The position numbers and the translations under genes are program-made. A stretch of DNA of 64,000 nucleotides from a virus: positions 7,299-71,298 of the IMG/VR virus record IMGVR_UViG_3300042991_000483. The stretch is one strand, 5' to 3'. The notes under the pieces are model-generated. The model ran no database searches. It saw only the letters and a list, made by a program, of their open reading frames with translations, and was not told where the DNA came from. Below, in pieces: positions 51,984-63,683 of the stretch. Numbering within the stretch: position 1 is the first letter of the stretch; each line of letters begins with the position of its first letter.

Positions 51984-52012
51984 CCCAAGACTCCGCTAGT
52001 TTCCCACCCTCG

Positions 52013-52044
52013 ACTGGGCGTCCTCATTGGGCGCCCAGTTTTTT
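52013..52044 (+). terminator. Intrinsic terminator
   Basis: actgggcgtcc-tcatt-gggcgcccagt followed by T6. Confidence 0.8.
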
Positions 52045-52075
52045 GTCGCTATCTCCGAGACGGTATGGTATACTC

Positions 52076-52260
52076 TCGCCGTGGTGGAGATGAACCCAAA
52101 CGCTGAAAAAGGCCGAGGCAACTTCTCCTCCACTGGGCCCGACCACGCCATAAACGTGGAAGGGGGTGAACCGAAGACCTCGTTAAGTCCGAGCGGTAGA
52201 GGTCAAGCGAAGCCGAGGGGTGGGTCGCAGACAGCGACCTAATTCCTCCCCCTGGAGGAT
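52076..52260 (+). ncRNA. Unclassified multi-hairpin RNA candidate
   Basis: Follows a TGGTATACT promoter; stems gtgg..ag/ctccac, ccacg/cgtgg, gacctc/gaggtc, ggtcgc/gcgacc and tcctcc/ggagga. Confidence 0.4.
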
Positions 52261-52330
52261 ACGATAAGGATTTCGTCGAGAATATACGCTATATAAATAG
52301 GTGGTACTGGACCACCGAGGAGAACAGAAG

Positions 52331-52405
52331 ATGAAGACCATGTCCTACGCAGCTATTTATTGGTTTAATGCGAATGCCAATGCCCTTTGGAGGCTGCTGG
52401 TCTAA
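52331..52405 (+). CDS. Leader peptide 1, MKTMSYAAIYWFNANANALWRLLV
   Basis: SD GAGGAG 8 nt upstream; 24 codons; overlaps the antiterminator arm. Confidence 0.8.
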   Translation: MKTMSYAAIYWFNANANALWRLLV

Positions 52406-52464
52406 GTCCATCTCTACCCCAGACCAACACAACCTCCGAGGGCGACTTCGGAGGTTTTCGTTTT
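52389..52464 (+). promoter_or_regulatory. Attenuator 1 (antiterminator/terminator)
   Basis: ggagg..tggtct pairs with agacca..cctcc and is mutually exclusive with terminator aacctccgag/ttcggaggtt plus T-run. Confidence 0.8.
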
Positions 52465-52471
52465 GGAGGAG

Positions 52472-52696
52472 ATGATGCCAGTGTCAGAGAAGGTGTTTAG
52501 GCTACAGACGAAGTTGATGCAGTGCGAACATATCCTACAAGCACTGGCGGAAATGCACCATGACTTAGTAGAGGAAGCGGAGACTTTGATAGCAGTCTTG
52601 GAAAGGGAAGGGTTAGGAAGTTTCAGTACCAGCGTCGCCTACAGATCGGAGATGCTGAAGCGAATGCTAGAAGAGCATAAGGAGAAGATGAGTTAA
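52472..52696 (+). CDS. Small helical hypothetical protein, first gene after attenuator 1
   Basis: SD GGAGGAG. Confidence 0.6.
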   Translation: MMPVSEKVFRLQTKLMQCEHILQALAEMHHDLVEEAETLIAVLEREGLGSFSTSVAYRSEMLKRMLEEHKEKMS

Positions 52697-52703
52697 GACA
52701 TGC

Positions 52704-52786
52704 TGTGAGGACCCCGTTGGGTGGGGCTGAGGCTGTTAACCTCACGCTGAAAAGCAGATAGGGTTCGATTCCCTACCTCACAGCCA
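52704..52786 (+). tRNA. tRNA with GTT anticodon (Asn) and long variable arm
   Basis: tgtgagg/cctcaca-G-CCA; tgagg-ctGTTaa-cctca; gct-gaaa-agc arm; TTCGATT loop. Confidence 0.75.
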
Positions 52787-52789
52787 AAC

Positions 52790-52864
52790 GGAGCGTTAGT
52801 TCAATGGTAGAACGCGGGGTCTGTTAAACCCACGACGAAGGTCCGATTCCTTCACGCTTCGCCA
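52790..52864 (+). tRNA. tRNA-Asn(GTT)
   Basis: ggagcgt/acgcttc-G-CCA; gggt-ctGTTaa-accc. Confidence 0.85.
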
Positions 52865-52978
52865 ATTTTTTAATAAGGTCACCGGGGCAACCAAGTAGAT
52901 GACGCCACATCGTGTGGCTAAGGATAAGGTCAGTGTTCGATATGTGGGAGGTGACGTTACAGAACAAACAGTACTAAT

Positions 52979-53074
52979 GCCATCATTTCCCCTCAACCGG
53001 CTGTAACCCGGTTGCCCGTTACCAATAAGAGGGGTCGGCTGGGCGTCCGGTTCGAATCCGCGATGGTGGCACCA
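52979..53074 (+). tRNA. tRNA-Tyr(GTA), D-arm-less rewired type
   Basis: gccatca/tggtggc-A-CCA; aaccgg-ctGTAac-ccggtt; cccctc pairs with gagggg in the variable arm. Confidence 0.8.
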
Positions 53075-53076
53075 TT

Positions 53077-53152
53077 CTCTGTCTGGTGTAAGTGGTCTGC
53101 ACTGTAGCTCGAAACACTACGGGACTCCGTTCGATTCGGAGGGCAGAGGCCA
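53077..53152 (+). tRNA. tRNA with CGA anticodon (Ser-like), 9-nt loop and short variable region
   Basis: ctctgtc/ggcagag-G-CCA; gtag-ctCGAaaca-ctac. Confidence 0.65.
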
Positions 53153-53161
53153 AAGTTCTGT

Positions 53162-53235
53162 AGCCCTTTAGTTCAACATTAGAACAATGCTCTGATAAAG
53201 CATAGACTTCCGTGAGACTCGGAGAAGGGCTACCA
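53162..53235 (+). tRNA. tRNA-Ile(GAT)
   Basis: agccctt/aagggct-A-CCA; atgct-ctGATaa-agcat. Confidence 0.88.
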
Positions 53236-53244
53236 AACAATCAG

Positions 53245-53319
53245 GCTTCCTTCGTCTAGCTAGGAGGACTCCCGGCCGATTACCGGGGAACGCTGGGGCA
53301 GAGCCAGCAGGAAGTTCCA
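53245..53319 (+). tRNA. Atypical tRNA with GAT anticodon (Ile?)
   Basis: gcttcct/aggaagt-T-CCA; cccgg-ccGATta-ccggg; T-loop GGCAGAG. Confidence 0.65.
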
Positions 53320-53327
53320 AAATATGT

Positions 53328-53401
53328 GGGGTCGTCGTTCAACGGGAGGACACTACAATGGCATTGTAGGGATCGGGGTTCGATTCCCCGTGACTCCACC
53401 A
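53328..53401 (+). tRNA. tRNA-Ala(GGC)
   Basis: G3:U70; ctaca-atGGCat-tgtag; ACCA. Confidence 0.92.
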
Positions 53402-53408
53402 ACATAGT

Positions 53409-53484
53409 GGGGGCGCATGTACCAAGGGGGCGATGATGCCTCGCAAGCATCGTGCGGAGAGTTCGATTCTCTTCGTCTCCACCA
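53409..53484 (+). tRNA. tRNA-Ala(CGC)
   Basis: G3:U70; gatgc-ctCGCaa-gcatc; ACCA. Confidence 0.9.
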
Positions 53485-53494
53485 AAAGTTTTAT

Positions 53495-53568
53495 AGGTCC
53501 GTCGGTTAACAGAAGGCTCCTGGTCTCCAAAACCAGCAATCTCCGTGCAAATCGGAGCGGACCTGCCA
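53495..53568 (+). tRNA. tRNA-Trp(CCA)
   Basis: aggtccg/cggacct-G-CCA; ctggt-ctCCAaa-accag. Confidence 0.9.
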
Positions 53569-53574
53569 ATTTAT

Positions 53575-53650
53575 CCCAGGGTCGTCTAACACTTAGGACA
53601 CGCGCCTCCAAAGCGCGAAGGTGTGGGTGAAAATCCTACCTCTGGGGCCA
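53575..53650 (+). tRNA. tRNA-Trp(CCA), second copy
   Basis: cccaggg/ctctggg-G-CCA; cgcgc-ctCCAaa-gcgcg. Confidence 0.88.
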
Positions 53651-53865
53651 ACTCTTAGGAGGTTGCCTATGTCATCGCCAAACGCAAGTCCGAGTACTAC
53701 CACATACTCCTGACTAGGTTCAGTTCCGATATAGACAGGGACACGGCACTGGCGGAATGCAGGAGTAGGTGCTACACAAAACCCAATGTAGTAGAGGGTC
53801 TTGGCAACAAACTTCTGACACTTTCTGGTAAAGTCTTTCGCTCACCTGAGTCTTGCTTCGAGGCG

Positions 53866-54126
53866 ATGGACGGTATGGGAGTTGGCCTGGACCTGATCCG
53901 GTGCGAGGACTACATCACTCTCGGTCGCTACCTCTACGGGAAGCGGATGCTCAACGTCACCGTGACTCAGTGGATCGAGGACATGAACATCTACATCTTC
54001 TGGCCAGAACTCTTCCGCGAGTACCCGCGTTGGTTCTTAGAAACCTACCTCTCCCGGATTTGGACGGCGGAGATTGGGATGTGGTATGGCGCTTTCACTT
54101 CTGATCTCGCTATAAATAAGGAGTAG
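53866..54126 (+). CDS. Hypothetical protein (frame open back to 53659)
   Basis: Track ORF; the upstream extension has no in-frame ATG. Confidence 0.45.
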   Translation: MDGMGVGLDLIRCEDYITLGRYLYGKRMLNVTVTQWIEDMNIYIFWPELFREYPRWFLETYLSRIWTAEIGMWYGAFTSDLAINKE

Positions 54127-54253
54127 AGACGGAGCAGCATCTGCTGCGGGAAAGTTGGAGGAAGAGTTGGTAGCCCTTCCTTGGCATCTGCCAAAACGAA
54201 GAACGCCCGATGTCCTGCGCCAACAGCCGAAGGGACACGCCGTCTCTACCTCC
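54120..54253 (+). ncRNA. Unclassified rod-shaped RNA with possible pseudoknot
   Basis: gtagagacgg/ccgtctctac closing stem, nested ttggagg/cct..ccaa and ttggtag/ctgccaa; CGCTATAAATA just upstream. Confidence 0.55.
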
Positions 54254-54256
54254 ATA

Positions 54257-54388
54257 GGAACCTGGGCTGGTGTACGAGACGATCAGAAATGGCATTCCCT
54301 GCTAGTAGCCCCTCCTGTTACGAGGGAGCCCGGTATAGGGGGTAGGGAGGAGTGGGTGGCGAATCGAGACTCCCACGCCCGCGTTCCA
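54257..54388 (+). ncRNA. Enlarged tRNA-like RNA (GTT loop, CCA end)
   Basis: gaac..gggc/gccc..gttc ends; ccctc-ctGTTac-gaggg; tccctgc/gtaggga; gtggg/cccac arm. Confidence 0.5.
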
Positions 54389-54610
54389 AATTCTTTCGCT
54401 ATCTCTGAGGGAGTGTGGTAGAATGTATCTGACCGGATCCATGCCGCAGGGCAGTGGGTTAATGAGAGAGGGTTCTCCGGGCGCTTCACCTAACGTAAAC
54501 GAACCCTCGTCACGGAGATTGTGAAAGGGACGCAATCCCGTTCCCACAAGGTACTTAATCGGCAACGCCGGTAGCCTTCCCTCACCGGCACTTCTTCTAC
54601 GGAGGCAAGT

Positions 54611-55027
54611 ATGAAGTTCACCAAGCTCAATTACGTCAAGAGGGGAGAGGTTACGAAGGCTATCCGTCAATCTTGTCCCACCGCCTCTTTTCCAAAAGAC
54701 CAAAACAAAGCCACCGTGACGGTTTGGTTGCAGGATGAGGACCTTCCAGCATTAGATGCTGTCGCTAACTCCTTCGGTCTCCCCAAGCCTTTTCATCCCC
54801 ACTGTAGTGAGACATATAGTAGGGTTAGGGATGTCTGGCTCTTCAAAGATGATGCTAATCTTGCTGCATACGAAGAAGAGTGGGCACAAGTTCGGGCCAA
54901 GGAGAACGCTAGGCTGAGGAAAGAGCGGGACGAGGAGAGGGCATGGTACAAGTCTCAGGGTCGGGAAATACCATCATACCTGATGTGGGCGATTAGCCCA
55001 GCGGAGGCATATTGTTTAGGCGCATAG
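54611..55027 (+). CDS. Hypothetical protein
   Basis: 138 aa with SD GGAGG. Confidence 0.7.
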   Translation: MKFTKLNYVKRGEVTKAIRQSCPTASFPKDQNKATVTVWLQDEDLPALDAVANSFGLPKPFHPHCSETYSRVRDVWLFKDDANLAAYEEEWAQVRAKENARLRKERDEERAWYKSQGREIPSYLMWAISPAEAYCLGA

Positions 55028-55455
55028 AATTGATCACGGTCACCGACTACCGAGAGATCGCCAAGGAGATGAAAGCCAACGGCTGGACCCCCTCTGACTT
55101 CATCGCCGAACTGGCTCAATCCGGCGAGAGGGAGTGGTTAAAATCAGGACTCTGCTTCAACGGATGCGACATGGCCGTCTTTGACTCCTGGGTAGACAGA
55201 CTCGAAGAAGGCATCACGAATAAGCATAGGGGCGTCCCGAATAAGAACGGGAGGTTCTACTTCACAGAAGAGGGCTGGAACAGGGTTGGACGGTATGCTG
55301 TTGCAGCTTGTATTAAGACCGGGACACAGTACCGTGTGCTGAAGGTCAAAGAGAAGGAGATGGATGTTATATTTCGCGGTGCCTACGAGGTCATGCTGAG
55401 ACCGAAGAAGAAGCGTAGGGATCGCAAAGAAGATCAGCGACTGAGTCAAGATTAG
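55012..55455 (+). CDS. Hypothetical protein
   Basis: 147 aa; RFYFTEEGW; SD GGAGG. Confidence 0.7.
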   Translation: MFRRIELITVTDYREIAKEMKANGWTPSDFIAELAQSGEREWLKSGLCFNGCDMAVFDSWVDRLEEGITNKHRGVPNKNGRFYFTEEGWNRVGRYAVAACIKTGTQYRVLKVKEKEMDVIFRGAYEVMLRPKKKRRDRKEDQRLSQD

Positions 55456-55526
55456 GGCCTATGGCGTAATTAGGAACGCATCGCCCCTGCAAGGCGAAGT
55501 CCCCGGGGCGGAGCCGGGTAGGTCCA
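55455..55526 (+). tRNA. tRNA-Ala(TGC), CCA not encoded
   Basis: gggccta/taggtcc-A with G3:U70; tcgcc-ccTGCaa-ggcga; T-loop GGCGGAG. Confidence 0.8.
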
Positions 55527-55530
55527 CAGG

Positions 55531-55590
55531 GGTTCGTTTCCTGTTGGGTTCACCAAAAGAATATACATAGGAACCCAACAGGAGATGAAC
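55531..55590 (+). promoter_or_regulatory. RBS-sequestering hairpin with promoter motif in its loop
   Basis: gttcgtttcctgttgggttc/gaacccaacaggagatgaac; loop contains AGAATATA; 3' arm contains SD AGGAG. Confidence 0.75.
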
Positions 55591-55591
55591 T

Positions 55592-56584
55592 ATGTCAGAC
55601 GTTTATAAATGCGAACAATGCGGAAAAACAGTCGAATCCTCTAAACGTTTTTGCGGAAGACCATGTTCTAACCGTTGGATAGCCACTCACAGAAAGACCC
55701 ATCCGAGAGAAGCTAAATTAGAATGCGCGTGTAAACACTGTGGAAGCATGTTCAAGAAAAAGCATAATCTCGGGTTTCGCCTCTGTACGAGGTGCAGAAA
55801 TAAACAAGACTACATCAGGGATAGAAATAAAACAGCGCAGCCAGGAAGAGAAAGGCTTTGTAAGTACTGTGAAAAACCCAACTTAGGAGAATACGGGGCT
55901 GGAATATTCTGCTCTCAACTCTGTTCGAAACGATACGCCAGTGCATACACGCAGACGCCGATTCTAGTCGTTTGTATGGACTGCGAAAAAGAGTTCTCTA
56001 CGTTTGAAAGAAACAAGTCCCAAACAAAGCGATGTCCGGCCTGTAGAAAAAGGGCTAGACGTAAACGACAAGGGCTACATGGGATATCAAAAAAGGAAAA
56101 GTGTTCGAAATGTCAGAAGAACATAGGTCCTACAAAGCACGGAATGTGCAAAGTATGCCTTTATAAGGACCCTGAATTTAGACTGAAAGTGAAAGCACTA
56201 TCTGCGGGCTGGCACTTTCGACCAAGGAAAATGAGGTCGTTTCCAGAACTTTTCTTTGAGCGGGTCATAAAGAATAACAGAAGACGGTTTAAGGGAGAGG
56301 GGTATTTACCGGATTACCCAGTGAAAAAGAAATCTCTGGGTCTCATCAATAATGGCTCCTATTTCCTTGATTTCTATTTCCCAAATTGGAAGTTAGACCT
56401 GGAAATAGATGGGAGCCAGCATTGGCAATATGAGGAGCGGATACAGAGCGATATTACGAGAGACATTGCTCTGAAAGCTAATGGTATAAAGGTATATAGG
56501 ATCCCGTGGCCGGGGGTAGAGAAGAAAGAGGTTTTGTCTATGGAGATCGAGAAATTTTTATCTTACGTGGATGAGCTTTCATGA
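55592..56584 (+). CDS. Zn-finger-repeat DUF559/Vsr-like homing endonuclease
   Basis: Multiple CxxC; SFPE, YFLDF, LEIDGSQH, RDIAL..GIKVYRI; AT-rich. Confidence 0.88.
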   Translation: MSDVYKCEQCGKTVESSKRFCGRPCSNRWIATHRKTHPREAKLECACKHCGSMFKKKHNLGFRLCTRCRNKQDYIRDRNKTAQPGRERLCKYCEKPNLGEYGAGIFCSQLCSKRYASAYTQTPILVVCMDCEKEFSTFERNKSQTKRCPACRKRARRKRQGLHGISKKEKCSKCQKNIGPTKHGMCKVCLYKDPEFRLKVKALSAGWHFRPRKMRSFPELFFERVIKNNRRRFKGEGYLPDYPVKKKSLGLINNGSYFLDFYFPNWKLDLEIDGSQHWQYEERIQSDITRDIALKANGIKVYRIPWPGVEKKEVLSMEIEKFLSYVDELS

Positions 56585-56677
56585 TTCTCTCCAGGTCCAC
56601 CATTGACAGCGCGAGGGCTTCGGCTCTCGCTTTCTGCTGCCAGACGAGAATATAGTGATATAACGAAGGAGAACGCC

Positions 56678-56935
56678 ATGCCCATGTACGAAGTCTTTCT
56701 CAGCGGAACCCTCTATCTCAACGCCCGCGTGGAAGTGGAAGCCAATAGCCCAGAAGAAGCTGAATCTGTTGCGATGCACAGAGCTGCATCAGATGACGAG
56801 TCTATCGAATGGATAAACTTGGACAGTAGCCTGGAAATGCCTCCTGGGGTATTTCCTTCGGATGCTGTCTACGTGGACGATGTCTCAGAGATGGACGAGG
56901 ACGATGGTATCGGCTCTGATTTCATCGAGACCTAA
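56678..56935 (+). CDS. Small acidic hypothetical protein
   Basis: SD AGGAG; VEVEANSPEEA motif. Confidence 0.7.
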   Translation: MPMYEVFLSGTLYLNARVEVEANSPEEAESVAMHRAASDDESIEWINLDSSLEMPPGVFPSDAVYVDDVSEMDEDDGIGSDFIET

Positions 56936-56936
56936 G

Positions 56937-57242
56937 ATGTCGCAATACGGATACAAACCCGAACCCAGTGAAGCCGGGGTGGTTTCCCGTATCGTCATAG
57001 AACCGAACTATTCCAGTAACGAAGAGTTTCCTGGAAAGCTATCGGTGATGATGTTGGACGCAGAGGACAGGCTAGTGGACGTCTGGAGTGCCAACGACAT
57101 CAATGAAGCCGCTGCGCTATTGATCCGATACGGTGGCGAAGCCGGATACGAAATCAACAAAGTCGAGTCTCCCCAGATCCCGAACGAAGGCGACGCCCCC
57201 GAGCCACCTTGGCCTGTAGGCGGAGACGTCGGCGGCGTCTAA
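56937..57242 (+). CDS. Hypothetical protein
   Basis: ATG immediately after the upstream stop. Confidence 0.6.
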   Translation: MSQYGYKPEPSEAGVVSRIVIEPNYSSNEEFPGKLSVMMLDAEDRLVDVWSANDINEAAALLIRYGGEAGYEINKVESPQIPNEGDAPEPPWPVGGDVGGV

Positions 57243-57264
57243 TCCCCCACTTCCTAACTCAATA

Positions 57265-57292
57265 AAAGAGCCTGCTATTTGCAGGCTTTTTT
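57265..57292 (+). terminator. Intrinsic terminator
   Basis: agcctgc-tattt-gcaggct followed by T-run. Confidence 0.75.
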
Positions 57293-57403
57293 GTTGCCCT
57301 GTTTAGATACTCACCGCCGGATGTAGAGTTAATGAACAGAAACTCCTTATTCTATAAAGAGAATATATGAGTAGTGACTCGCTAATATAAGAGGAGGTTC
57401 GCC

Positions 57404-57589
57404 ATGACCGCAGTCCTTGTGATACTCACCATCCTCGTTCTCGTTCTCGTTGCCGCAGACGCTACCAGACTCTCTCTTGTTCGTAGGAGAATGATAAAGG
57501 TAGGAGCCGTATTTGAACCTGGGCTTGGTTTCTGCATGGGCGACGGGCTTCGGAAAGATGACGCTGATCCGGAGAATATACAGGCTTAG
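57404..57589 (+). CDS. Small membrane-anchored protein
   Basis: Hydrophobic N-terminus; SD GGAGG. Confidence 0.6.
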   Translation: MTAVLVILTILVLVLVAADATRLSLVRRRMIKVGAVFEPGLGFCMGDGLRKDDADPENIQA

Positions 57590-57654
57590 CCGGGGAAGTT
57601 TTCAAAATTCTCCGCTATTATATTCAAGGTGTGATATACTCAACCCCTTGGAGG

Positions 57655-57759
57655 ATGAAGACGATGTTTAAGAGATCTAGGCAACCCAAACCAGTACAGA
57701 CAGGGACTACGGGACATATGCGCCCGTGCGTCGGCGTCAAGGGAGGTCAGACCTCGTAA
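57655..57759 (+). CDS. Leader peptide 2, MKTMFKRSRQPKPVQTGTTGHMRPCVGVKGGQTS
   Basis: TGATATACT -10 at 57632-57640; SD GGAGG is best spaced to the second Met (57664); overlaps the antiterminator arm. Confidence 0.8.
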   Translation: MKTMFKRSRQPKPVQTGTTGHMRPCVGVKGGQTS

Positions 57760-57822
57760 AATCATCGGCATTATTAGGTGAAACGAGGCGACCTCCAAGA
57801 AAATTGGGGGTCGTTTTAGTTT
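57742..57822 (+). promoter_or_regulatory. Attenuator 2 (antiterminator/terminator)
   Basis: ggaggtc..cctcgt pairs with acgagg.gacctcc and is exclusive with terminator gcgacctccaa-gaaa-ttgggggtcgt plus T-run. Confidence 0.8.
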
Positions 57823-57918
57823 TGGGGTCAGGGTAAGGTTTCGGATGTAGCTTATGCTGTCACCGGAGAAACCAGCACAGTGGCGAGGGCGGGGCCGACT
57901 GGGCGAAGTGGAGTTGAG

Positions 57919-58128
57919 ATGAGAGAAGAATGCTTGCATGGTAGGACGTACAGGGTGGTTGTAGGAGCGGAGGCTAGAAGGACTACGGTCACGGAATTTG
58001 GAGACGAGATTCAGTATTGCGTGGAACGGATCATTTTCAGGTGTTCAGATTGCAACAGAGAAGTATCAGAACTAGGTAGACGCAGGGCTTACTTCCCCAC
58101 GACTACTGAATTAGAAACGACGAAGTAA
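57919..58128 (+). CDS. Small Cys/His hypothetical protein, first gene after attenuator 2
   Basis: CLH..CSDC; SD GGAG. Confidence 0.55.
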   Translation: MREECLHGRTYRVVVGAEARRTTVTEFGDEIQYCVERIIFRCSDCNREVSELGRRRAYFPTTTELETTK

Positions 58129-58131
58129 GTC

Positions 58132-58143
58132 GCTCTTTGAAAA
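58132..58143 (+). promoter_or_regulatory. boxA-like antitermination element
   Basis: GCTCTTTGAAAA before tRNA array 2. Confidence 0.6.
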
Positions 58144-58246
58144 TCAGTCGGAAGAACGGACCGCAGAACCCCTCACGTTCTGCGTGGCATGATTCTGCGG
58201 TCTCGAACTTTAGATTTGGAACGCGCTCGTGCGCGTTCCCACCTCC

Positions 58247-58318
58247 GCGCCTTTAATGTAACGGTAGCATGCGGTCAGGCTTGATCCCCCGCAGAGCGGT
58301 TCGATTCCGCAAGGCGCT
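58247..58318 (+). ncRNA. tRNA-like RNA (Gly-type body) with aberrant 14-nt anticodon loop
   Basis: gcgcctt/aaggcgc-T, D-arm and gcgg-ttcgatt-ccgc. Confidence 0.65.
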
Positions 58319-58331
58319 TCTTATTACTTAT

Positions 58332-58429
58332 GGGGTCTGTTAGTGTAAAAGGATAGCACACTCCGTCCTACGCGGGTACCGGCGAGACGGGTCAAAGTAG
58401 ACGCGGTTCGATTCCGCACGGGCCCCCCA
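58332..58429 (+). ncRNA. tRNA-like RNA (His-type G-1:C73 end) with extended anticodon arm
   Basis: ggggtctgt/acgggcccc-CCA, D-arm, ccgtc/gacgg extension and gcgg-ttcgatt-ccgc. Confidence 0.7.
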
Positions 58430-58443
58430 ATTCTTATCTATGA

Positions 58444-58521
58444 CTGAGAGTGGACTAATGGCTAAGTCTCCTGCTTTGGAAGCAGGACATCGTGAGAGTT
58501 CGAGTCTCTCCTCTCAGACCA
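58444..58521 (+). tRNA. tRNA-Pro(TGG)
   Basis: ctgagag/ctctcag-A-CCA; cctgc-ttTGGaa-gcagg. Confidence 0.93.
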
Positions 58522-58529
58522 AAACATGA

Positions 58530-58604
58530 TGGCGTTTGGTGGACCAGCGGACACATCGGGCCTTGAACCCGAAGAACAGGGGCCGGCACCCTGAACGCCT
58601 GCCA
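58530..58604 (+). tRNA. tRNA-Gln(TTG)
   Basis: tcggg-ccTTGaa-cccga; G-CCA; T-loop GCCGGCA. Confidence 0.8.
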
Positions 58605-58615
58605 AAAACGATTAC

Positions 58616-58689
58616 TGGCGCTTCGTTCAATAGTAGGATTCTGCTCTCTGAAAGCAGAGACGATGGGGCGGTACCATCAGTGCCAGCCA
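58616..58689 (+). tRNA. tRNA-Gln(CTG)
   Basis: tggcgct/agtgcca-G-CCA; ctgct-ctCTGaa-agcag. Confidence 0.88.
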
Positions 58690-58711
58690 ATATCTCCGAG
58701 TATCTTAACGT

Positions 58712-58799
58712 CAGGGTGTAGTCCCGTAAATAGCAGCGGTCCGGCCTCGGACGCCGGTGGGGCAACCCCTTGGTGGTGCAAGTCCACTCGCCCTGACCA
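58712..58799 (+). tRNA. tRNA-Pro(CGG) with long variable arm
   Basis: cagggtg/cgccctg-A-CCA; ccggc-ctCGGac-gccgg; ggg-gcaa-ccc arm. Confidence 0.8.
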
Positions 58800-58816
58800 A
58801 TTCTTCTTTGTACAAT

Positions 58817-58860
58817 CCCCTCCATCGAGGAAACGTTGGTTCAACTCCAGCACCGGGCAC
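58817..58860 (+). pseudogene. 3'-half tRNA remnant
   Basis: T-arm gttgg-ttcaact-ccagc and accgggc-A with no matching 5' strand. Confidence 0.5.
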
Positions 58861-58917
58861 TTTCACTTTCCATCTGGAAACTATAATGTCCAAATGGACA
58901 CTCAAATGACCAAGTAA

Positions 58918-58993
58918 GCGGGAATGGTGTAAAGGAAGCATCGAACGTTGCCAACGTTCAGGTCCGGGTTCGCCTTGCCCGGTTTCCGCTCCA
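58918..58993 (+). tRNA. tRNA-Gly(GCC)
   Basis: gcgggaa/tttccgc-T-CCA; gaacg-ttGCCaa-cgttc; 9-nt T-loop. Confidence 0.88.
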
Positions 58994-59002
58994 AAAACAA
59001 AT

Positions 59003-59093
59003 AGTCGGCATTCCCTATGCTGGTCTGCAAAACCAGTGGGCCCAACCAAGTAGGGCGGATGCCTGTGAGGTTCGACTCCTCTGCTGACTTCCA
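59003..59093 (+). tRNA. tRNA-Cys(GCA), D-arm-less rewired type
   Basis: agtcggca/tgctgact-T-CCA (U73); ctggt-ctGCAaa-accag; cccta pairs with taggg in the variable arm. Confidence 0.8.
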
Positions 59094-59150
59094 ATTTCTT
59101 TCTATATCTCCAGAGACTGTGGTAGAATATACCTTTGTCATGGAGATAGC

Positions 59151-61052
59151 ATGAGAGAGAGTGCAGTCGGTACTTGCCAGATCTGCGAAAGACTCGTCAA
59201 GTCTAACCGCGGCACTATCGCCCACCACGGATACACCAGACCTGGGGCAGGGTGGCAAACAGAATCGTGCATGGGATCCATGTACAAACCCTACGAAGTC
59301 AGTAGGGACAGGATCCCGGACGCCATAGCCTCCGTGGAAGCCTACATCAAAACAGCAAAGGCTAGGTTGAAGCAGTTGAAGTCCGGGGGCGTGGTGCTCA
59401 GCAAGAGAGTTCAGAAAGAGTTTAATCGTCAGACTTGGAAATACGAATACGAAGATGTTGAAGTCAGACCTGGAGACGAAGACTACGACCAACTCCTTCA
59501 CTCTGCTGTCGCTAAGACTGAATCCAATATCTCTGGCTCTCAAACCACGCTCAACAGATTCAAGCAGAGGTACGAGGAATGGGAGCCAAAGGACTTGCGT
59601 AGGGTCGCGGAGCCCACTACAGCTGCTGAGAGGATACAGAAGCGGAAGGAAGAGGGACCACAAGAAGATTTCAAATTTGAAGTAGGGGATTGGGTCTACC
59701 GAGTCCTCGGTGGCAGGGTGCAGAAGGGCGTCAAGCTTGAGTTTTGGGGCGAAAGCAAAGCCGTCCCGAGCCGTATCAAATACCCCATGGGACAGATCCT
59801 TCGGAGAAACTTTAGACCTCGTGCGGCTGAGTATAAGCGTCACGAGTACGAGATCATCTTTTTCGAAGACTACCTGGGTTGGGTCAACGACGCCGACAAG
59901 GACTGGAAACGAGACAGCGAGAGGGTGACGACTTCGCAGGAGATGCTAGTGGCTTCTCCAGAACAAGTCCCTGAACTCGGTACAGGAGTCGAGTTCGCCA
60001 GTAAGCGAAATGCAGAGTTAGCACTACTGCCGAAGGAGGCAGTGAGAAAAAGTTCAGATGACGCCCCCTTCAAATTCGAAGTCGGAGATACCGTGTATAG
60101 ACTCGGGAACGACGGGATGCCTATAACCGACATAGGCACGGACAAATACCACGACGTCGGTGAACCACCTCTCCATATAACCTATCCCGTAGGTAAGATA
60201 AAGAAACGCATATACAAAGCGAAACTTGCCAAAGAAAATCTTCGAATCCGTTACATCGTGGAATGGGTCACGGACTGGTTCAAACCCGATACCCACGAAG
60301 GTCCTACCATGACTTATCGCTATGAGAGAGAAACCAGAAGCACGGAAGAGATGGAAACCAGCCTCGTCCCTGCAGCAAGTGCTGTGCCGCCAATACCAAA
60401 AGAAACAGCAACGAGAAAGAATGCTCTCTATTCGGAGACTACAGTGATAACCGAAGACAAAGCAGAACAGATTAAGATCGCCGGTAGAACGATGACCACT
60501 CGCGCTGGTGGCGGCGCCTCTAAACCAATTCGCTGGCTCATCAACAACTCCTGCATCCTCGGTCATGTCCTCTACCACGGCAGGGGCAAAGATATCGCCG
60601 GTGAGAGTATGCTAGCCTCTGACGTGGGTGTCTCTAGTGTGTCCGCTTACGATCCTAATATCAGCGGTATAGATGATGCCAGCACCCTCAATGGGGATTA
60701 TGATACTGTTGTCACCGTCTTCGTTCTCAATGTCCTCCCCCCAGATATCCGCGCCGAAGTCTTAGACGACCTCCGTACCGCAACAGGAGATGGCGTGTGC
60801 TTCGCCGCTGTCAGAGGCAAGGGAGAAAGAGGGTATCAAGACGCGACCAGAGAAGGCGCGAACTGGATCCCCGAGGAAGACGGCTACCGATACCAGGGAG
60901 CAAGGAACACTTTCCAGAAATGGTATGACCCCAGTGAACTCGTGTCAGAACTCAAGTCCGTATTCTCTCATGTCGAGATCGTGAACACTGATAGGGAAGC
61001 CCCTATCGCGATGGCCTGGAATCAGGGCAACCACTCCTGTCCGAATAAATAA
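59151..61052 (+). CDS. Multidomain protein with C-terminal SAM-methyltransferase-like domain
   Basis: GTCQIC..HHGY N-domain, duplicated FKFEVGDxVYR module, and VLYHGRGKD..YDP..YDTVVTVFVLNVL. Confidence 0.7.
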   Translation: MRESAVGTCQICERLVKSNRGTIAHHGYTRPGAGWQTESCMGSMYKPYEVSRDRIPDAIASVEAYIKTAKARLKQLKSGGVVLSKRVQKEFNRQTWKYEYEDVEVRPGDEDYDQLLHSAVAKTESNISGSQTTLNRFKQRYEEWEPKDLRRVAEPTTAAERIQKRKEEGPQEDFKFEVGDWVYRVLGGRVQKGVKLEFWGESKAVPSRIKYPMGQILRRNFRPRAAEYKRHEYEIIFFEDYLGWVNDADKDWKRDSERVTTSQEMLVASPEQVPELGTGVEFASKRNAELALLPKEAVRKSSDDAPFKFEVGDTVYRLGNDGMPITDIGTDKYHDVGEPPLHITYPVGKIKKRIYKAKLAKENLRIRYIVEWVTDWFKPDTHEGPTMTYRYERETRSTEEMETSLVPAASAVPPIPKETATRKNALYSETTVITEDKAEQIKIAGRTMTTRAGGGASKPIRWLINNSCILGHVLYHGRGKDIAGESMLASDVGVSSVSAYDPNISGIDDASTLNGDYDTVVTVFVLNVLPPDIRAEVLDDLRTATGDGVCFAAVRGKGERGYQDATREGANWIPEEDGYRYQGARNTFQKWYDPSELVSELKSVFSHVEIVNTDREAPIAMAWNQGNHSCPNK

Positions 61053-61062
61053 GGAGAAGACG

Positions 61063-61332
61063 ATGCGCAGATACCTTATCTTCGCCGGAAGCGAATTTTA
61101 TCCTAGTGGTGGGTGGGCAGACCTCGTAGATATGGCTGACGAACTAGGCAAAGTCTACTACATCATAGATGGTTGGCGAGAGTTTGACGACTGGGATGCA
61201 GAGGCTTTGCGAGATGATAGCCCAAGCTCCTACAAATACGATTGGGTACAGGTTGTGGACACACAGGCATCGACCCCCTTCAAGTTCGAGGGGACGGTAG
61301 AAGAAGTTCTTTACGGACTCAGACGCCCGTAA
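61063..61332 (+). CDS. Hypothetical phage protein
   Basis: RYLIFAG.FYPSGGWAD..DWVQVVD; SD AGGAG. Confidence 0.75.
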   Translation: MRRYLIFAGSEFYPSGGWADLVDMADELGKVYYIIDGWREFDDWDAEALRDDSPSSYKYDWVQVVDTQASTPFKFEGTVEEVLYGLRRP

Positions 61333-61396
61333 GATCCTCCCTTATCTTCCGGAGTTATGGTATACTGTCTCCGTGGAGATAGTAGCTTCCGCGATG

Positions 61397-61407
61397 GTTC
61401 TTTGAAA
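61397..61407 (+). promoter_or_regulatory. boxA-like element after TGGTATACT promoter
   Basis: GTTCTTTGAAA; promoter at 61343-61366. Confidence 0.6.
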
Positions 61408-61410
61408 CTG

Positions 61411-61694
61411 CTTTCGGTGGTAGGCTTAGAAGTAGCCAGTACGGCTCACACCCGTACCTGCCTTAATGAGCAGAAGCATAGCCTATAGTGAGTGGTGCGT
61501 GGGTTGGGGACTTATACGCGCACCGGCGGGGGAAAGTTGCCCCGAAATATCCTACCTGCCCGACCTGAATCCCAAGCGTGAGAAGGGAATCCTCCCTATG
61601 AAGTACCTTCTCATAACGTGATGGTTAAGGCTGAGGCTGACAACTTGCTTTAGGTGGAGGTCTAGCTTCTCTTGGTGTAACAACACGCCGAAAG
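61411..61694 (+). ncRNA. Structured RNA resembling the 23S rRNA L11-binding domain (H43/H44)
   Basis: GGCTTAGAAGTAGCCA and GGTGTAACAACAC framed by a ctttcggtg/cgccgaaag stem. Confidence 0.7.
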
Positions 61695-61702
61695 AACATA
61701 TG

Positions 61703-61808
61703 ACGGGTTTGGTGTAACGTTAGCACTCTCTGGGGAGGACGGGTTCTCGCCTTCGGGCTACGACCAAATTCTTCGGGGAAGAGCGGTTAGACTCCGCAAC
61801 TCGTACCA
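61703..61808 (+). ncRNA. tRNA-like RNA with long branched anticodon arm
   Basis: acgggtt/aactcgt-A-CCA, D-arm and gcgg-ttagact-ccgc; no 7-nt anticodon loop. Confidence 0.7.
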
Positions 61809-61836
61809 AAATAATCTAATATGATGGAGGAGTCCG

Positions 61837-62313
61837 ATGAAGAAAGTGGACAAGCACATCGTCACCGCCGCTCACAAAGCCTACCACAATCGCAGTAAGA
61901 CCTGGAGACGTTCTCGTCTCAAGTACCGTTCGGAATACTTTGACTACTCCTGTAGGCATCACGGCTCTTGTCCTTACTGCCACCTCAGGCGCCTGCATAA
62001 CACCATCCGCAGAGAACTCAATGCCAGAGAAGAGATGGCAGAGTTCATCAAAGACCCAAATGGCTGGGACGCTCGGACTGAGGCAGAGTTGTGGGGCATG
62101 GACGAAGACGATCCTACAACGCCTCAGGAATATCTCGACCCCGCTTTTCTTGCCGCCTGGGAGACGTACCAAGATCGAATGGGCGGGGAGATGACGGATG
62201 AACAAGACCAGTGGGAGATTGATAACCACTTCGACGGAGACCGAGAGGCTTGGGAAAAAGCCGAAGTCGAAAGCTATTTAGAAGCTACAGAATCTATAGG
62301 ACGAGATGACTGA
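61837..62313 (+). CDS. Hypothetical protein (basic N-terminus with C-H-C-C motif, acidic C-terminus)
   Basis: FDYSCRHHGSCPYC; SD GGAGGAG. Confidence 0.7.
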   Translation: MKKVDKHIVTAAHKAYHNRSKTWRRSRLKYRSEYFDYSCRHHGSCPYCHLRRLHNTIRRELNAREEMAEFIKDPNGWDARTEAELWGMDEDDPTTPQEYLDPAFLAAWETYQDRMGGEMTDEQDQWEIDNHFDGDREAWEKAEVESYLEATESIGRDD

Positions 62314-62351
62314 TGGGTGCATGCACCTAGCATCAGCCTCGTCCCACTCAT

Positions 62352-62426
62352 GGCGTAGTTAGTCCAATGGTAGGACGCAGGACTGTGAATCCTGTTATAA
62401 GAGTTCGATTCTCTTACTTCGCCCCA
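62352..62426 (+). tRNA. tRNA-His(GTG)
   Basis: G-1 and C73; cagga-ctGTGaa-tcctg; CCA. Confidence 0.92.
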
Positions 62427-62458
62427 ATCCAAATAAAAGCGAGGATCTCGCTGAAGAT

Positions 62459-62533
62459 GTGTCGTTGGCAGAGCGACCATGCGCTGGGATGTGACCCCAG
62501 ATCAGGCCGGTTTAACTCCGGCACGACACCCCA
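62459..62533 (+). tRNA. tRNA-His(GTG), second copy without encoded G-1
   Basis: gtgtcgt/acgacac-C-CCA; ctggg-atGTGac-cccag. Confidence 0.82.
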
Positions 62534-62620
62534 ATATGAGACAGCTTGCCCCAGGCTAAGGCAGAAGATGAAGCGGAGCGAGGATGCCGAGTCTCCGATT
62601 AAACTGCCACTCTCTTTACT

Positions 62621-62694
62621 GCGGATATGGTGTAAAATCAGCATCTTGCATTCCCAATGCAAGGGACTCGGAGAGTTACCGAGTATCCGCTCCA
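62621..62694 (+). tRNA. tRNA-Gly(CCC)
   Basis: gcggata/tatccgc-T-CCA; ttgca-ttCCCaa-tgcaa. Confidence 0.88.
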
Positions 62695-62696
62695 AT

Positions 62697-62776
62697 GCTC
62701 CTGTATCGGACAGGTTTCCTAAACCTGACCACCGTAACGGATGAAAATGCGGGTTCAAGTCCCGCCGGGAGCCCCA
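62697..62776 (+). tRNA. tRNA-Arg(CCT), D-arm-less type
   Basis: gctcctg/cgggagc-C-CCA; caggt-ttCCTaa-acctg; 7-nt D region and 21-nt variable region. Confidence 0.75.
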
Positions 62777-63286
62777 CTATTCTATTCCTGCGTGTCTTTC
62801 TCTGTGGCAGTTAGCGCAGAGAAGAACGCATTTGTCCAACTCTGCCCTCATGCAGTCATTGAAGGACACACTCTTTTTCTTTGAGATAATGAAGTCTTTC
62901 TTGCTTGGGTCAGTGTGATGAAAATCCAAGGCACCAGTGAATTTGTCATACCCACACTTTTCACATTTTCCACCTTTGTAGTCTACAAACTGTTGCTTCT
63001 GCCTTTGTCCTCGGTCCCTGCACTCATCACTTGTACACTGCTTACAATACGACGAGGTATCTTTTCGATCCTCTCTCCTTACCATATAGAAGGCAGATAG
63101 TGGTCTTGTCTCTTTACATCTAGGACATCGTTTCACTCCAAGATTCTTTGGATATTGACTAGTGTTATGCTTTCCGAAGGGACTACAGGCTAGGCAGAAA
63201 CGCCGTTTACTAAAGTTTCGTTTCTTACCCTCTATCTCTACGAATATCGCGAACGCATCACCACACTTCTCACACGTTTTAGGCAT
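62777..63286 (-). CDS. HNH homing endonuclease
   Basis: KCEKCGY..ALDFHHTDP..ELDKCVLLCANCHRERH. Confidence 0.92.
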   Translation of the reverse strand: MPKTCEKCGDAFAIFVEIEGKKRNFSKRRFCLACSPFGKHNTSQYPKNLGVKRCPRCKETRPLSAFYMVRREDRKDTSSYCKQCTSDECRDRGQRQKQQFVDYKGGKCEKCGYDKFTGALDFHHTDPSKKDFIISKKKSVSFNDCMRAELDKCVLLCANCHRERHAGIE

Positions 63287-63342
63287 TTAGACCTCCTTGT
63301 CTAATTGTATATTCTCGTGGAGGTGTGTAGTTGAACTATTAT

Positions 63343-63424
63343 GCACCCGTAGCCGAGCGAGGCCCCGAACCTCGTATCCGTAATGTAGCTGCGAATGGAG
63401 GTTAAAGTCCTCTCGGGTGCTCCA
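63343..63424 (+). tRNA. tRNA-Arg(CCG), D-arm-less type
   Basis: gcacccg/cgggtgc-T-CCA; cgagg-ccCCGaa-cctcg. Confidence 0.65.
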
Positions 63425-63426
63425 AC

Positions 63427-63501
63427 GCTGTGGTCTTCTAAGACGCAGGATGCTTCTCTCACTAAGAAGCGATGGGGGTGCGAATCCTCCCCGCAGCACC
63501 A
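63427..63501 (+). tRNA. tRNA-Val(CAC)
   Basis: gctgtgg/ccgcagc-A-CCA; cttct-ctCACta-agaag. Confidence 0.85.
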
Positions 63502-63546
63502 TCACGCTATCTTTATCCGGGCTTAACTCAGCGGAATAGCTTTCAC

Positions 63547-63621
63547 CTGCCCGTAATTCAGTGGTAGAATCCAATTCTTACAAAATTGGGGTCGGTGGTT
63601 CGAGTCCACCCGGGCAGACCA
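63547..63621 (+). tRNA. tRNA-Val(TAC)
   Basis: ctgcccg/cgggcag-A-CCA; caatt-ctTACaa-aattg. Confidence 0.92.
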
Positions 63622-63683
63622 TAAAATACAACGTTCAATTCGTTCTCTCTGCACCAAAAAGAATATACGGATAGAGGTGTCAA

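What the first reader, a model, noticed from the sequence alone, without database searches (positions are those of the whole stretch)
57613..57822. Attenuator 2: Gly/Thr/Pro/Gln/Arg/Val/His/Cys leader with broad synonymous-codon sampling
The 34-codon ORF contains all four Gly and all four Thr codons, Pro CCC/CCA/CCG, Arg AGA/AGG/CGC, both Gln and both Lys codons. That pattern fits an isoacceptor-level sensor better than a functional peptide. ggaggtc (57742-57748) and cctcgt (57752-57757) pair with gacctcc (57790-57796) and acgagg (57783-57788), competing with the terminator at 57788-57816. Thr and Lys tRNAs are not in the window and are predicted beyond 64000. Internal promoters at 59105 and 61343 may express the distal tRNAs independently.
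Basis: partly seen in the sequence, partly recalled or inferred. Interest (0 to 1): 0.87.

Follow-up and report, generated by a model that had tools for sequence, protein, structure and literature searches.

The report
Leader-peptide switch before phage tRNA genes
In front of a block of tRNA genes, an uncultured giant phage carries a promoter, a tiny translatable reading frame and a transcription stop that can be switched off by an alternative RNA fold, so it probably transcribes these tRNA genes only when ribosomes are slow, a control known for amino-acid genes but apparently not described for tRNA genes.

Summary
It holds a promoter of a repeated phage motif, a Shine-Dalgarno site and a 34-codon ORF (57655-57759). 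It also holds a terminator hairpin (57790-57812) with a T-tract, and a 7+6 bp alternative helix joining the ORF's last codons and stop codon to the terminator's 5' arm.

- **Alternative helix:** it beats shuffles (4 of 2000 reach it). Ten other terminator-like hairpins in the contig lack such a partner.
- **Twin cassette:** a second cassette (52331-52456) heads the other tRNA array. Its leader is the only place in the contig, in six frames, with at least 11 of 14 residues from its array's amino acids.
- **Leader 2 match:** it is weaker. 19 of 30 residues belong to array 2's seven identities (2% of six-frame windows do as well). Thr x4 and Lys x3 have no tRNA in the contig, which ends at 64000.

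My best reading (about 0.5) is a ribosome-sensing leader-peptide attenuator gating tRNA array 2. I could obtain no DNA from relatives and no RNA data.

This scan has noted the same kind of cassette on other phages. I re-checked one case in phiCbK. My literature searches found no published account.

The parts
57613..57640 (+). Promoter-like element, CGCTAT...TGTGATATACT with an extended -10. The start site is inferred near 57647.
   Evidence: One of 3 matches to CGCTAT-N8-16-TGNTANANT, 0.03 expected. It aligns with the family at 48341, 52066, 54416, 59120 and 61358. No start site has been mapped.
57650..57654 (+). Shine-Dalgarno GGAGG. It abuts ATG 57655 and lies 9 nt before the second ATG at 57664.
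   Evidence: Read from the sequence. The spacing favours the second ATG, which would give a 31-residue peptide (inference).
57655..57759 (+). Leader ORF 2: 34 codons plus TAA.
   Evidence: It is the only ORF with an SD and ATG between promoter and terminator. It has no true homologue among 1.84 billion representatives and was not gene-called in the source.
57742..57757 (+). Antiterminator 5' arm: the last five sense codons and the first base of the stop codon.
57783..57796 (+). Antiterminator 3' arm. It overlaps the first 7 nt of the terminator's 5' arm.
   Evidence: the minimum-free-energy fold of the leader up to 57812 forms this helix rather than the terminator; 4 of 2000 shuffles reach its energy.
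57790..57823 (+). Intrinsic-terminator-like hairpin (9 bp with one G-U, loop GAAAA) plus the GTTTTAGTTTT tract.
   Evidence: core -13.3 kcal/mol; extended stem -23.7. The tail GTTTTNGTTTTGG is shared with the cassette-1 terminator.
57919..58128 (+). First gene after the terminator: 69 aa, cysteine-rich, unknown function.
   Evidence: Gene-called in the source as P0001. No Pfam family. The Atlas gave only unnamed phage clusters.
58247..59090 (+). Proximal part of tRNA array 2: two tRNA-like RNAs without a normal anticodon loop, then Pro UGG, Gln UUG (weak), Gln CUG, Pro CGG, Gly GCC and Cys GCA.
   Evidence: plus my manual reading.
59105..59128 (+). Internal promoter-like site just before the 633-aa gene.
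   Evidence: 5 matches, 0.08 expected.
61343..61366 (+). Second internal promoter-like site.
62353..63621 (+). Distal part of array 2: His GUG x2, Gly CCC, Arg CCU, Arg CCG (C33), Val CAC and Val UAC.
   Evidence: plus my manual reading.
52331..52456 (+). Twin cassette 1. It comprises the leader ORF MKTMSYAAIYWFNANANALWRLLV (52331-52405), a 19-bp antiterminator (52382-52403 with 52421-52443) and the terminator 52431-52456.
   Evidence: (0 of 2000 shuffles).

Best explanation
57613-57822 is a ribosome-mediated (leader-peptide) transcription attenuator at the head of the phage's second tRNA array.

Proposed mechanism:
1. Transcription starts at the promoter and the short ORF is translated while RNA polymerase moves on.
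2. If the ribosome runs to the stop codon, it covers 57742-57757. The terminator hairpin 57790-57812 then forms and transcription stops before the 69-aa gene and the tRNA genes.
3. If the ribosome is held up earlier in the ORF, or is absent, 57742-57757 pairs with 57783-57796. That sequesters the terminator's 5' arm and transcription reads through.

The ORF is rich in the amino acids whose tRNAs follow (Gly, Pro, Gln, Arg, Val, His, Cys). Its twin at 52331-52456 mirrors the other array. The signal is therefore most likely slow decoding caused by shortage of usable tRNAs, which gives a feedback loop on tRNA supply.

Shown here: the sequence parts, the competing folds and their statistics, the twin cassette and the composition match.
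Inferred: translation of the ORF, termination, conditional read-through, and what is sensed.
For: (1) Anatomy in the right order and spacing: promoter, SD, ORF, then a stop codon that ends inside the antiterminator 5' arm and lies 30 nt before the terminator.

(2) Competing folds. The minimum-free-energy fold up to the terminator's 3' arm forms the antiterminator. The duplex is -24.1 kcal/mol against -13.9 +/- 2.6 in shuffles, and 4 of 2000 shuffles reach it.

(3) Ribosome-mask partition-function model:
- no ribosome: P(antiterminator pairs) 0.94;
- A-site at codons 26-35: P(terminator pairs) 0.94-0.99;
- A-site at codons 17-20 and 23-25: P(antiterminator) 0.92-0.99.

(4) Specificity. My scan listed 11 terminator-like hairpins in the contig. 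Only the cassette-1 terminator had a significant upstream partner (z -3.3); the other 10 had z above -1. Two control terminators were also not significant.

(5) Twin cassette before array 1. It shares the start ATGAAGACNATG, an ACCTCC terminator arm and the tail GTTTTNGTTTTGG. No shuffle of 2000 reaches its antiterminator. The only 14-residue windows with at least 11 of 14 residues in {N,Y,I,A,W}, among 85,843 six-frame windows of the contig, are the 5 windows in its leader.

(6) Leader 2 composition.
- 19 of 30 residues are in {P,Q,G,C,H,R,V}. The binomial tail is 1.2e-4 against this phage's own protein composition of 0.294.
- All 7 array-2 identities are present and none of N/Y/I/A/W. Only 4 of 54,133 windows meet this post-hoc triple criterion, and 3 of them are leader 2.
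- The leader-by-array 2x2 table [[13,2],[0,19]] gives Fisher P = 1.1e-7.

(7) The same design in an unrelated cultured phage, phiCbK. A 32-codon ORF ends 25 nt before a terminator that the record's authors annotated, and tRNA Phe, Val, Ile, Ile, Val, Gln, Gln follow. No shuffle of 1000 reaches its upstream alternative pairing of -39.6 kcal/mol.
Against: - Eleven of the 30 residues after MKTM (Thr x4, Lys x3, Ser x2, Phe, Met) have no tRNA in array 2 or anywhere in the contig.
- Against six-frame windows, 19 of 30 is reached by 1107 of 54,133 windows, or 2%.
- Only 12 of the 19 matched codons are read strictly by an array-2 anticodon. AGA, CGC and GGA x2 are not (my reading).
- In the mask model, stalls at codons 9-15 give P(terminator) 0.63-0.97. 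Several matched codons therefore lie where a stall would not help.
- Regulatory codons are single and scattered, not in tandem runs.
- The terminator is modest: core -13.3 kcal/mol with an interrupted T-tract. Both automated scans missed it.
- The SD abuts the first ATG.
- Promoters at 59105 and 61343 could express the distal tRNAs regardless of the switch.
- I could obtain no DNA from a relative, so conservation and compensatory changes are untested.
- There is no RNA evidence.
Confidence: 0.5

Rival explanations
1. It is a translation-sensing attenuator that reports general translation capacity rather than the supply of the particular tRNAs encoded downstream. The signal could be ribosome availability, global stalling or inhibitors of translation.
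For: - The switch anatomy is the same as in the best explanation.
- In the model, absence of a ribosome alone gives read-through, with P(antiterminator) 0.94.
- Leader 2 contains many codons (Thr, Lys, Ser, Phe) with no cognate tRNA in the array.
- The nearest case in print, the Anabaena trn operon, responds to general translational stress (PMC8421152, passages; PMC10272220, abstract).
Against: Leader 1's residues match its own array far beyond chance and differ from leader 2's. A general sensor has no need for that. Leader 2 contains all seven identities of its array and none of N/Y/I/A/W.
Confidence: 0.22
2. It is an ordinary small transcription unit: a promoter, a gene for a 31-34-residue basic peptide with its own function, and its terminator. 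The alternative pairing and the composition match would then be coincidental.
For: - Phage early regions are full of tiny genes with their own promoters and terminators.
- Taken alone, leader 2's composition match is only at the 2% level against six-frame windows.
- The codon-breadth test gives P = 0.017.
Against: - Only 4 of 2000 shuffles reach the alternative helix, and it lies exactly over the ORF end and stop codon.
- The same arrangement recurs at the head of the other array, with 0 of 2000 shuffles and a genome-unique composition match.
- Ten other terminator-like hairpins lack such a partner.
- The peptide has no true homologue. The only hit among 1.84 billion representatives is a tandem-repeat artefact.
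Confidence: 0.15
3. It is a non-coding element, either a small structured RNA (about 170 nt from promoter to terminator) or a protein- or ligand-controlled 5' leader. The ORF would then be fortuitous and untranslated.
For: - The region folds somewhat better than shuffles: z = -2.14, and 3 of 200 shuffles fold as well.
- The SD abuts the first ATG.
Against: - No Rfam family matches the locus at E <= 10. There is no T-box and no known leader.
- An SD lies 9 nt before the second ATG.
- The twin cassette has a well-spaced SD and ATG and a cargo-matched peptide.
Confidence: 0.06

Closest known systems
Multivalent leader-peptide attenuators of enterobacterial amino-acid operons (ilvGMEDA, thr; also trpL, hisL, leuL, pheL). 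This is recalled textbook knowledge; pheL leaders were seen only in a search listing (PMC3082878).
   Same: A short translated leader, an intrinsic terminator, a mutually exclusive antiterminator whose 5' arm is masked by a ribosome at the stop codon, and a leader enriched in the residues relevant to the cargo.
   Different: - The cargo is tRNA genes in a phage, not biosynthetic enzymes.
- At least seven amino acids are sampled with 1-5 scattered codons each, instead of tandem runs.
- No clear protector (1:2) hairpin was found, so an untranslated leader is predicted to read through.
- No sequence homology, and no Rfam leader family matches.
pheST (pheM leader) attenuation of phenylalanyl-tRNA synthetase (recalled, not checked in a paper here)
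   Same: Leader-peptide attenuation is applied to a component of the translation apparatus, giving feedback on the supply of charged tRNA.
   Different: It controls a synthetase for a single amino acid in a bacterial chromosome, not tRNA genes.
T-box riboswitches (Rfam RF00230; name and accession recalled)
   Same: They couple tRNA status to read-through of a terminator through an antiterminator.
   Different: T-boxes bind uncharged tRNA directly and need no translation. No T-box match was found at E <= 10.
Anabaena PCC 7120 trn operon: 26 tRNA genes, silent, induced under translational stress (PMC8421152, passages only; PMC10272220, abstract only)
   Same: An accessory tRNA array that is expressed only when translation is impaired. 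Homing endonucleases lie beside such arrays, as they do here.
   Different: The abstract attributes regulation to a ribbon-helix-helix repressor, TrcR. The 2021 paper's main text does not contain 'attenuat', 'leader peptide' or 'terminator'.
Ribosome-stalling attenuators of antibiotic-resistance genes (ermC, cat and vmlR types; recalled)
   Same: A stalled ribosome on a short leader ORF remodels the downstream RNA.
   Different: In those systems the drug induces the stall at a specific peptide motif. No such motif was examined here.

Membership tests
Leader-peptide (ribosome-mediated) transcription attenuator | A short ORF with a ribosome-binding site in the 5' leader, downstream of the promoter. 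| tested here: met
   GGAGG at 57650-57654; ATGs at 57655 and 57664; 34 codons. The promoter motif is shown. Translation itself is not shown.
Leader-peptide (ribosome-mediated) transcription attenuator | An intrinsic terminator between the leader ORF and the regulated genes. | tested here: met
   A 9-bp hairpin at 57790-57812 (-13.3 kcal/mol) followed by GTTTTAGTTTT. It is modest and both automated scans missed it.
Leader-peptide (ribosome-mediated) transcription attenuator | An antiterminator helix mutually exclusive with the terminator. | tested here: met
   57742-57757 pairs with 57783-57796 at -24.1 kcal/mol; 4 of 2000 shuffles reach it. It forms in the minimum-free-energy fold.
Leader-peptide (ribosome-mediated) transcription attenuator | A stop codon placed so that a terminating ribosome masks the antiterminator's 5' arm but not the terminator. 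| tested here: met
   TAA at 57757-57759 ends the 5' arm, and the terminator starts 30 nt later. The mask model gives P(terminator) 0.99 with the A-site at the stop codon.
Leader-peptide (ribosome-mediated) transcription attenuator | Regulatory codons that correspond to the product of the regulated genes. | tested here: inconclusive
   19 of 30 residues lie in the 7 identities of array 2, which 2% of six-frame windows also reach. The binomial tail against phage proteins is 1.2e-4. Thr x4 and Lys x3 are unmatched. The feature is clearly met in the twin cassette.
Leader-peptide (ribosome-mediated) transcription attenuator | A protector/pause hairpin (1:2) that enforces termination without translation. 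| tested here: not met
   With no ribosome, the model gives the antiterminator at 0.94. A local hairpin at about 57707-57733 exists but does not pair with the 5' arm.
Leader-peptide (ribosome-mediated) transcription attenuator | Conditional read-through that depends on translation of the leader. | not testable with these tools
   No RNA run holds the locus.
Leader-peptide (ribosome-mediated) transcription attenuator | Conservation of the ORF and both helices in relatives. | not testable with these tools
   The nearest viral contigs carry no tRNA genes.
T-box riboswitch | A match to the T-box covariance model (specifier loop, T-box sequence). | tested here: not met
   No T-box hit at E <= 10 in 51500-64000.

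The most novel reading that the evidence does not exclude
Phages of unrelated lineages, here a T4-like-portal cave phage and phiCbK of Caulobacter, gate their tRNA arrays with polyvalent leader-peptide attenuators. Each leader acts as a 'test message' written in the codons of its own array. The phage would then transcribe a tRNA block only when those tRNAs run short, for instance after host tRNA decay or cleavage by anticodon-nuclease defences. That would be an unpublished, general principle of phage tRNA gene control.
Probability: 0.4. Interest if true: 0.9.

Novelty: new variant of a known kind. Interest (0 to 1): 0.72.

Why it matters
Why phages carry tRNA genes, and when they use them, is still debated. 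The current ideas are codon compensation and escape from tRNA-cleaving defences (PMC10264068 and PMC11555353; I saw only the search listings and the starts of the abstracts).

A leader-peptide switch in front of the arrays would mean the phage measures decoding directly and makes tRNAs on demand. That would:
- extend classical attenuation from amino-acid and synthetase genes to tRNA genes;
- give a simple, testable read-out, namely read-through of a roughly 200-nt element;
- allow a phage's tRNA cargo to be predicted from its leader, and the reverse.

This particular copy is the weaker of two in an uncultured phage. Its main value is as one more independent instance and as the partner that makes the twin comparison possible.

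Tried and rejected
**Relatives**
- The search for related loci with the 633-aa protein and with the portal in viral contigs found nothing.
- A portal alignment found 11 viral loci. The three nearest records (42-48% identity) are fragments with 0 tRNA matches. One of the 4 records searched had tRNAs, and that one is distant at 31%.
- The single metagenome scan gave 5 loci and no long relative.
- The 82-aa ORF after the terminator has no homologue but itself.
- The 633-aa protein has one relative, P0122, at 79% identity on a 13.8-kb contig. I could not obtain its DNA.
- The leaders are not in the protein collection.
- Leader 2 against 1.84 billion representatives gave 1 hit: a 1270-aa tandem-repeat protein that matches weakly in every repeat. 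This is an artefact.
- A pattern built from the shared terminator features gave 47 viral stretches, about the number I expected by chance (my own rough estimate). ARAGORN found tRNA genes in 5 of the 47, and none lay downstream of the match on the same strand.

**Expression**
- No RNA holder was listed. Only the probable source DNA run, a cave metagenome, holds the stretch.
- Laying that run's contigs left 57556-57959 without cover, so it says nothing about the leader.

**Function of the two ORFs after the terminators**
- No Pfam or PHROG family. The Atlas hits are unnamed or below usable scores.

**Rejected readings**
- T-box or another known RNA family.
- An ORF starting at GTG 57631. That start lies inside the -10 element.

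**Weak points I kept**
- The triple criterion is post hoc.
- The phiCbK block B and A2 terminators show only weak alternative pairing: 55 and 33 of 1000 shuffles reach them.
- My assignments of the odd tRNAs (Tyr, Cys, Pro CGG, Arg CCU, Arg CCG, second Ile) are manual readings that partly disagree with ARAGORN.

**Literature**
- Searches found no account of leader-peptide attenuation of tRNA genes.
- Supplementary files were not consulted.

Full report
**Context**

The window is the last 64,000 nt of a 71,298-nt virus record, so its end is the contig end. The contig has no terminal repeat.

It encodes a T4 gp20-type portal (PF07230 on the homologues; PHROG portal). It also encodes a terminase, the ribonucleotide reductase large subunit, a DNA polymerase, a helicase and an RNA ligase. 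The nearest viral records, at 42-48% portal identity, are rated 12-24% complete at 21-44 kb. The phage is therefore probably well over 150 kb and this contig is a fragment. The only run that holds it is a cave metagenome.

**The observation**

- The ORF runs from ATG 57655 to TAA 57757-57759, 34 sense codons.
- It uses all four Gly codons, all four Thr codons, three Pro, three Arg, both Gln and both Lys codons.
- GGAGG (57650-57654) abuts the first ATG and lies 9 nt before a second in-frame ATG at 57664. The second ATG is the better-spaced start (inference).
- The codon breadth is 26 distinct codons of 34. That is modestly unusual against this phage's own codon usage: simulated mean 22.4, P = 0.017.

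**Promoter**

57613-57640 is one of 3 matches to CGCTAT-N8-16-TGNTANANT in the window, against 0.03 expected.

A looser form, TATCT-N9-12-TGNTANANT, has 5 matches against 0.08 expected. These are motif matches. No transcription start has been mapped.

**Terminator and alternative fold**

- The core hairpin 57790-57812 has 9 bp with one G-U, loop GAAAA, at -13.3 kcal/mol. GTTTTAGTTTT follows. With the flanks it extends to -23.7 kcal/mol.
- The tool's scan and my own scan both missed it. The likely reason is that the stem extends into the T-tract through G-U pairs (inference).
- The helix GGAGGTC/GACCTCC plus CCTCGT/ACGAGG exists as described. In the fold of the leader up to the terminator's 3' arm, this helix forms and the terminator does not.
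- Its duplex energy is -24.1 kcal/mol against -13.9 +/- 2.6 for 2000 dinucleotide shuffles of the upstream 80 nt. Four shuffles reach it.
- Two control terminators showed nothing comparable. Neither did 10 of the 11 terminator-like hairpins in my contig-wide scan. The eleventh is the terminator of the twin cassette.

**Ribosome-mask model**

This is an equilibrium model with a 30-nt footprint.

| Ribosome position | P(terminator pairs) | P(antiterminator pairs) |
|---|---|---|
| None | 0.06 | 0.94 |
| A-site at codons 26-35, including the stop codon | 0.94-0.99 | not above 0.46 |
| A-site at codons 17-20 and 23-25 | not above 0.07 | 0.92-0.99 |
| A-site at codons 9-15 | 0.63-0.97 | not given |

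The row for codons 9-15 is a result against a simple 'any early stall reads through' picture.

Unlike trp, no protector hairpin is evident, so an untranslated leader is predicted to read through.

**The twin cassette**

- The leader is 52331-52405, MKTMSYAAIYWFNANANALWRLLV, with a well-spaced GAGGAG.
- The terminator is 52431-52456, with 11 bp and a GCGA loop.
- A 19-bp antiterminator joins 52382-52403 to 52421-52443. No shuffle of 2000 reaches its energy.
- The two cassettes share the first four codons, the ACCTCC core of the terminator arm and the tail GTTTTNGTTTTGG. That suggests duplication of one module (inference).

**tRNA cargo**

I used ARAGORN at default and relaxed thresholds, Rfam and my own reading of the sequence.
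- **Array 1:** Asn GUU x2, Tyr GUA, one tRNA with a 9-nt anticodon loop (Phe GAA or Ser CGA), Ile GAU x2, Ala GGC, Ala CGC, Trp CCA x2, and Ala UGC at 55455.
- **Array 2:** two tRNA-like RNAs without a normal anticodon loop, Pro UGG, Gln UUG (weak), Gln CUG, Pro CGG, Gly GCC, Cys GCA, His GUG x2, Gly CCC, Arg CCU, Arg CCG, Val CAC and Val UAC.

Several of these are non-canonical. My identities for them are manual and partly differ from ARAGORN's.

**Leader against cargo**

*Leader 1.*
- 13 of 20 residues after MKTM are in {N,Y,I,A,W}.
- The first 14 residues are all in {N,Y,I,A,W,F,S}.
- Among 85,843 stop-free 14-residue windows in the six frames of the contig, the only ones with at least 11 of 14 in the strict set are the 5 windows in this leader.

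*Leader 2.*
- 19 of 30 residues are in {P,Q,G,C,H,R,V}.
- 1107 of 54,133 30-residue windows (2%) do as well.
- The binomial tail against the composition of 16 long phage ORFs (0.294) is 1.2e-4.
- All seven identities are present and none of N/Y/I/A/W. Only 4 of 54,133 windows meet this post-hoc triple criterion, and 3 of them are leader 2.
- The cross table [[13,2],[0,19]] gives Fisher P = 1.1e-7. Residues within a peptide are not independent trials, so I treat this figure as descriptive.
- Against the reading: Thr x4, Lys x3, Ser x2, Phe and Met have no tRNA in the contig. Only 12 of the 19 matched codons are strictly read by an array-2 anticodon.

**Comparative and expression evidence**

There is none for this phage. 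Relatives with tRNA arrays could not be reached. No RNA run was listed.

**Generality**

The scan's notebook lists the same kind of cassette on several other phages. Those entries are unchecked AI notes, so I tested one lead myself on phiCbK (JX100813).
- The record's authors annotated rho-independent terminators directly before tRNA blocks.
- A 32-codon ORF ends 25 nt before the terminator at 51465-51502. Its stretch QFVRQIQVVRNIRAG has 10 of 15 residues in {F,V,I,Q,G}, the identities of the block that follows.
- The upstream sequence can pair with that terminator's 5' arm at -39.6 kcal/mol, against -23.5 +/- 3.1 for shuffles. No shuffle of 1000 reaches it.
- gp083, before the Pro/Lys/Leu/Ser block, has 23 of 45 residues in {P,K,L,S} (my count). 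Its alternative pairing is weak, with 55 of 1000 shuffles reaching it.

**Literature**

Five searches found no description of leader-peptide attenuation of tRNA genes.

The nearest case in print is the silent 26-gene trn operon of Anabaena, which is induced by translational stress. For PMC8421152 I saw passages only, and its main text lacks 'attenuat', 'leader peptide' and 'terminator'. The repressor TrcR controls that operon (PMC10272220, abstract only).

Phage tRNAs as an escape from tRNA-targeting defences are discussed in PMC10264068 and PMC11555353. I saw only the listings and the starts of the abstracts.

**Verdict**

- The attenuator reading is the best explanation, at about 0.5. It rests on the anatomy, the statistics and the twin cassette.
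- The claim that leader 2 is tuned to its own cargo is only partly supported.
- The kind is a new variant of leader-peptide attenuation, and this scan has met it before on other DNA.

Noticed in passing
window 52704-53650, 58247-59090, 62621-63501: Many phage tRNAs are non-canonical and often sit beside a canonical twin for the same anticodon. Examples: an Asn GUU with a long variable arm next to a normal one, a second Ile GAU with C33 and an odd T-loop, Pro CGG with a long variable arm, and Tyr, Cys and Arg without a normal D-arm. Gln UUG and Arg CCG also have C at position 33. ARAGORN and Rfam score them low or assign other anticodons.
   Followed up: partly
window 53077-53152: A tRNA with a 9-nt anticodon loop, CUCGAAACA, and G73. 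It can be read as Phe GAA or Ser CGA. ARAGORN gives Phe by default and Ser with a 2-nt intron when introns are allowed.
   Followed up: no
window 58247-58318 and 58333-58429: Two tRNA-like RNAs with good acceptor, D and T arms. The anticodon arm is replaced by a 5-bp stem with a 4-nt loop in one and by a long extra helix in the other. They are the first RNAs after the 69-aa gene that follows the terminator.
   Followed up: no
window 48326, 52050, 54400, 57613, 59105, 61343 (+ strand): A phage promoter-like family, (CGC)TATCTC-N9-10-TGGTAnAnT, confined to the tRNA region. There are 5 matches against 0.08 expected and 3 matches against 0.03 expected for the two patterns.
   Followed up: partly
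window 63819-63998 (contig end): An integrase-core (rve_3) fragment, just under Pfam's cut-off at 26.0 against 26.5 bits. Contig depth in the source run is 313 there, against about 13 for the neighbouring phage DNA. The contig probably breaks at a repeated insertion-sequence-like element.
   Followed up: partly
window 55592-56584 (+) and 62777-63286 (-): HNH/DUF559-type homing-endonuclease-like genes lie inside the tRNA arrays. The terminase gene 8716-11523 also carries an endonuclease-like insert at residues 171-329.
   Followed up: no
window 62123-62327: The source run holds a second, lower-depth variant. It has 11 differences in 150 nt at depth 3.6, against depth 12.6 for the main form. This points to strain microdiversity near the His tRNA genes.
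   Followed up: no
window 52091-52242: Between promoter 52050-52074 and leader 1 lies a 50-codon ORF (MNPNAEKGRGNF...) whose GGAG abuts its ATG, as in cassette 2. A TCCTCC-CCCT-GGAGGA hairpin without a T-tract follows. Its role is unknown.
   Followed up: no
window 22194-24896 (-): A 900-aa protein with an RNA ligase domain (PF09414, residues 544-734) in a phage with many tRNA genes. A role in tRNA repair is possible, but that is only an inference.
   Followed up: no
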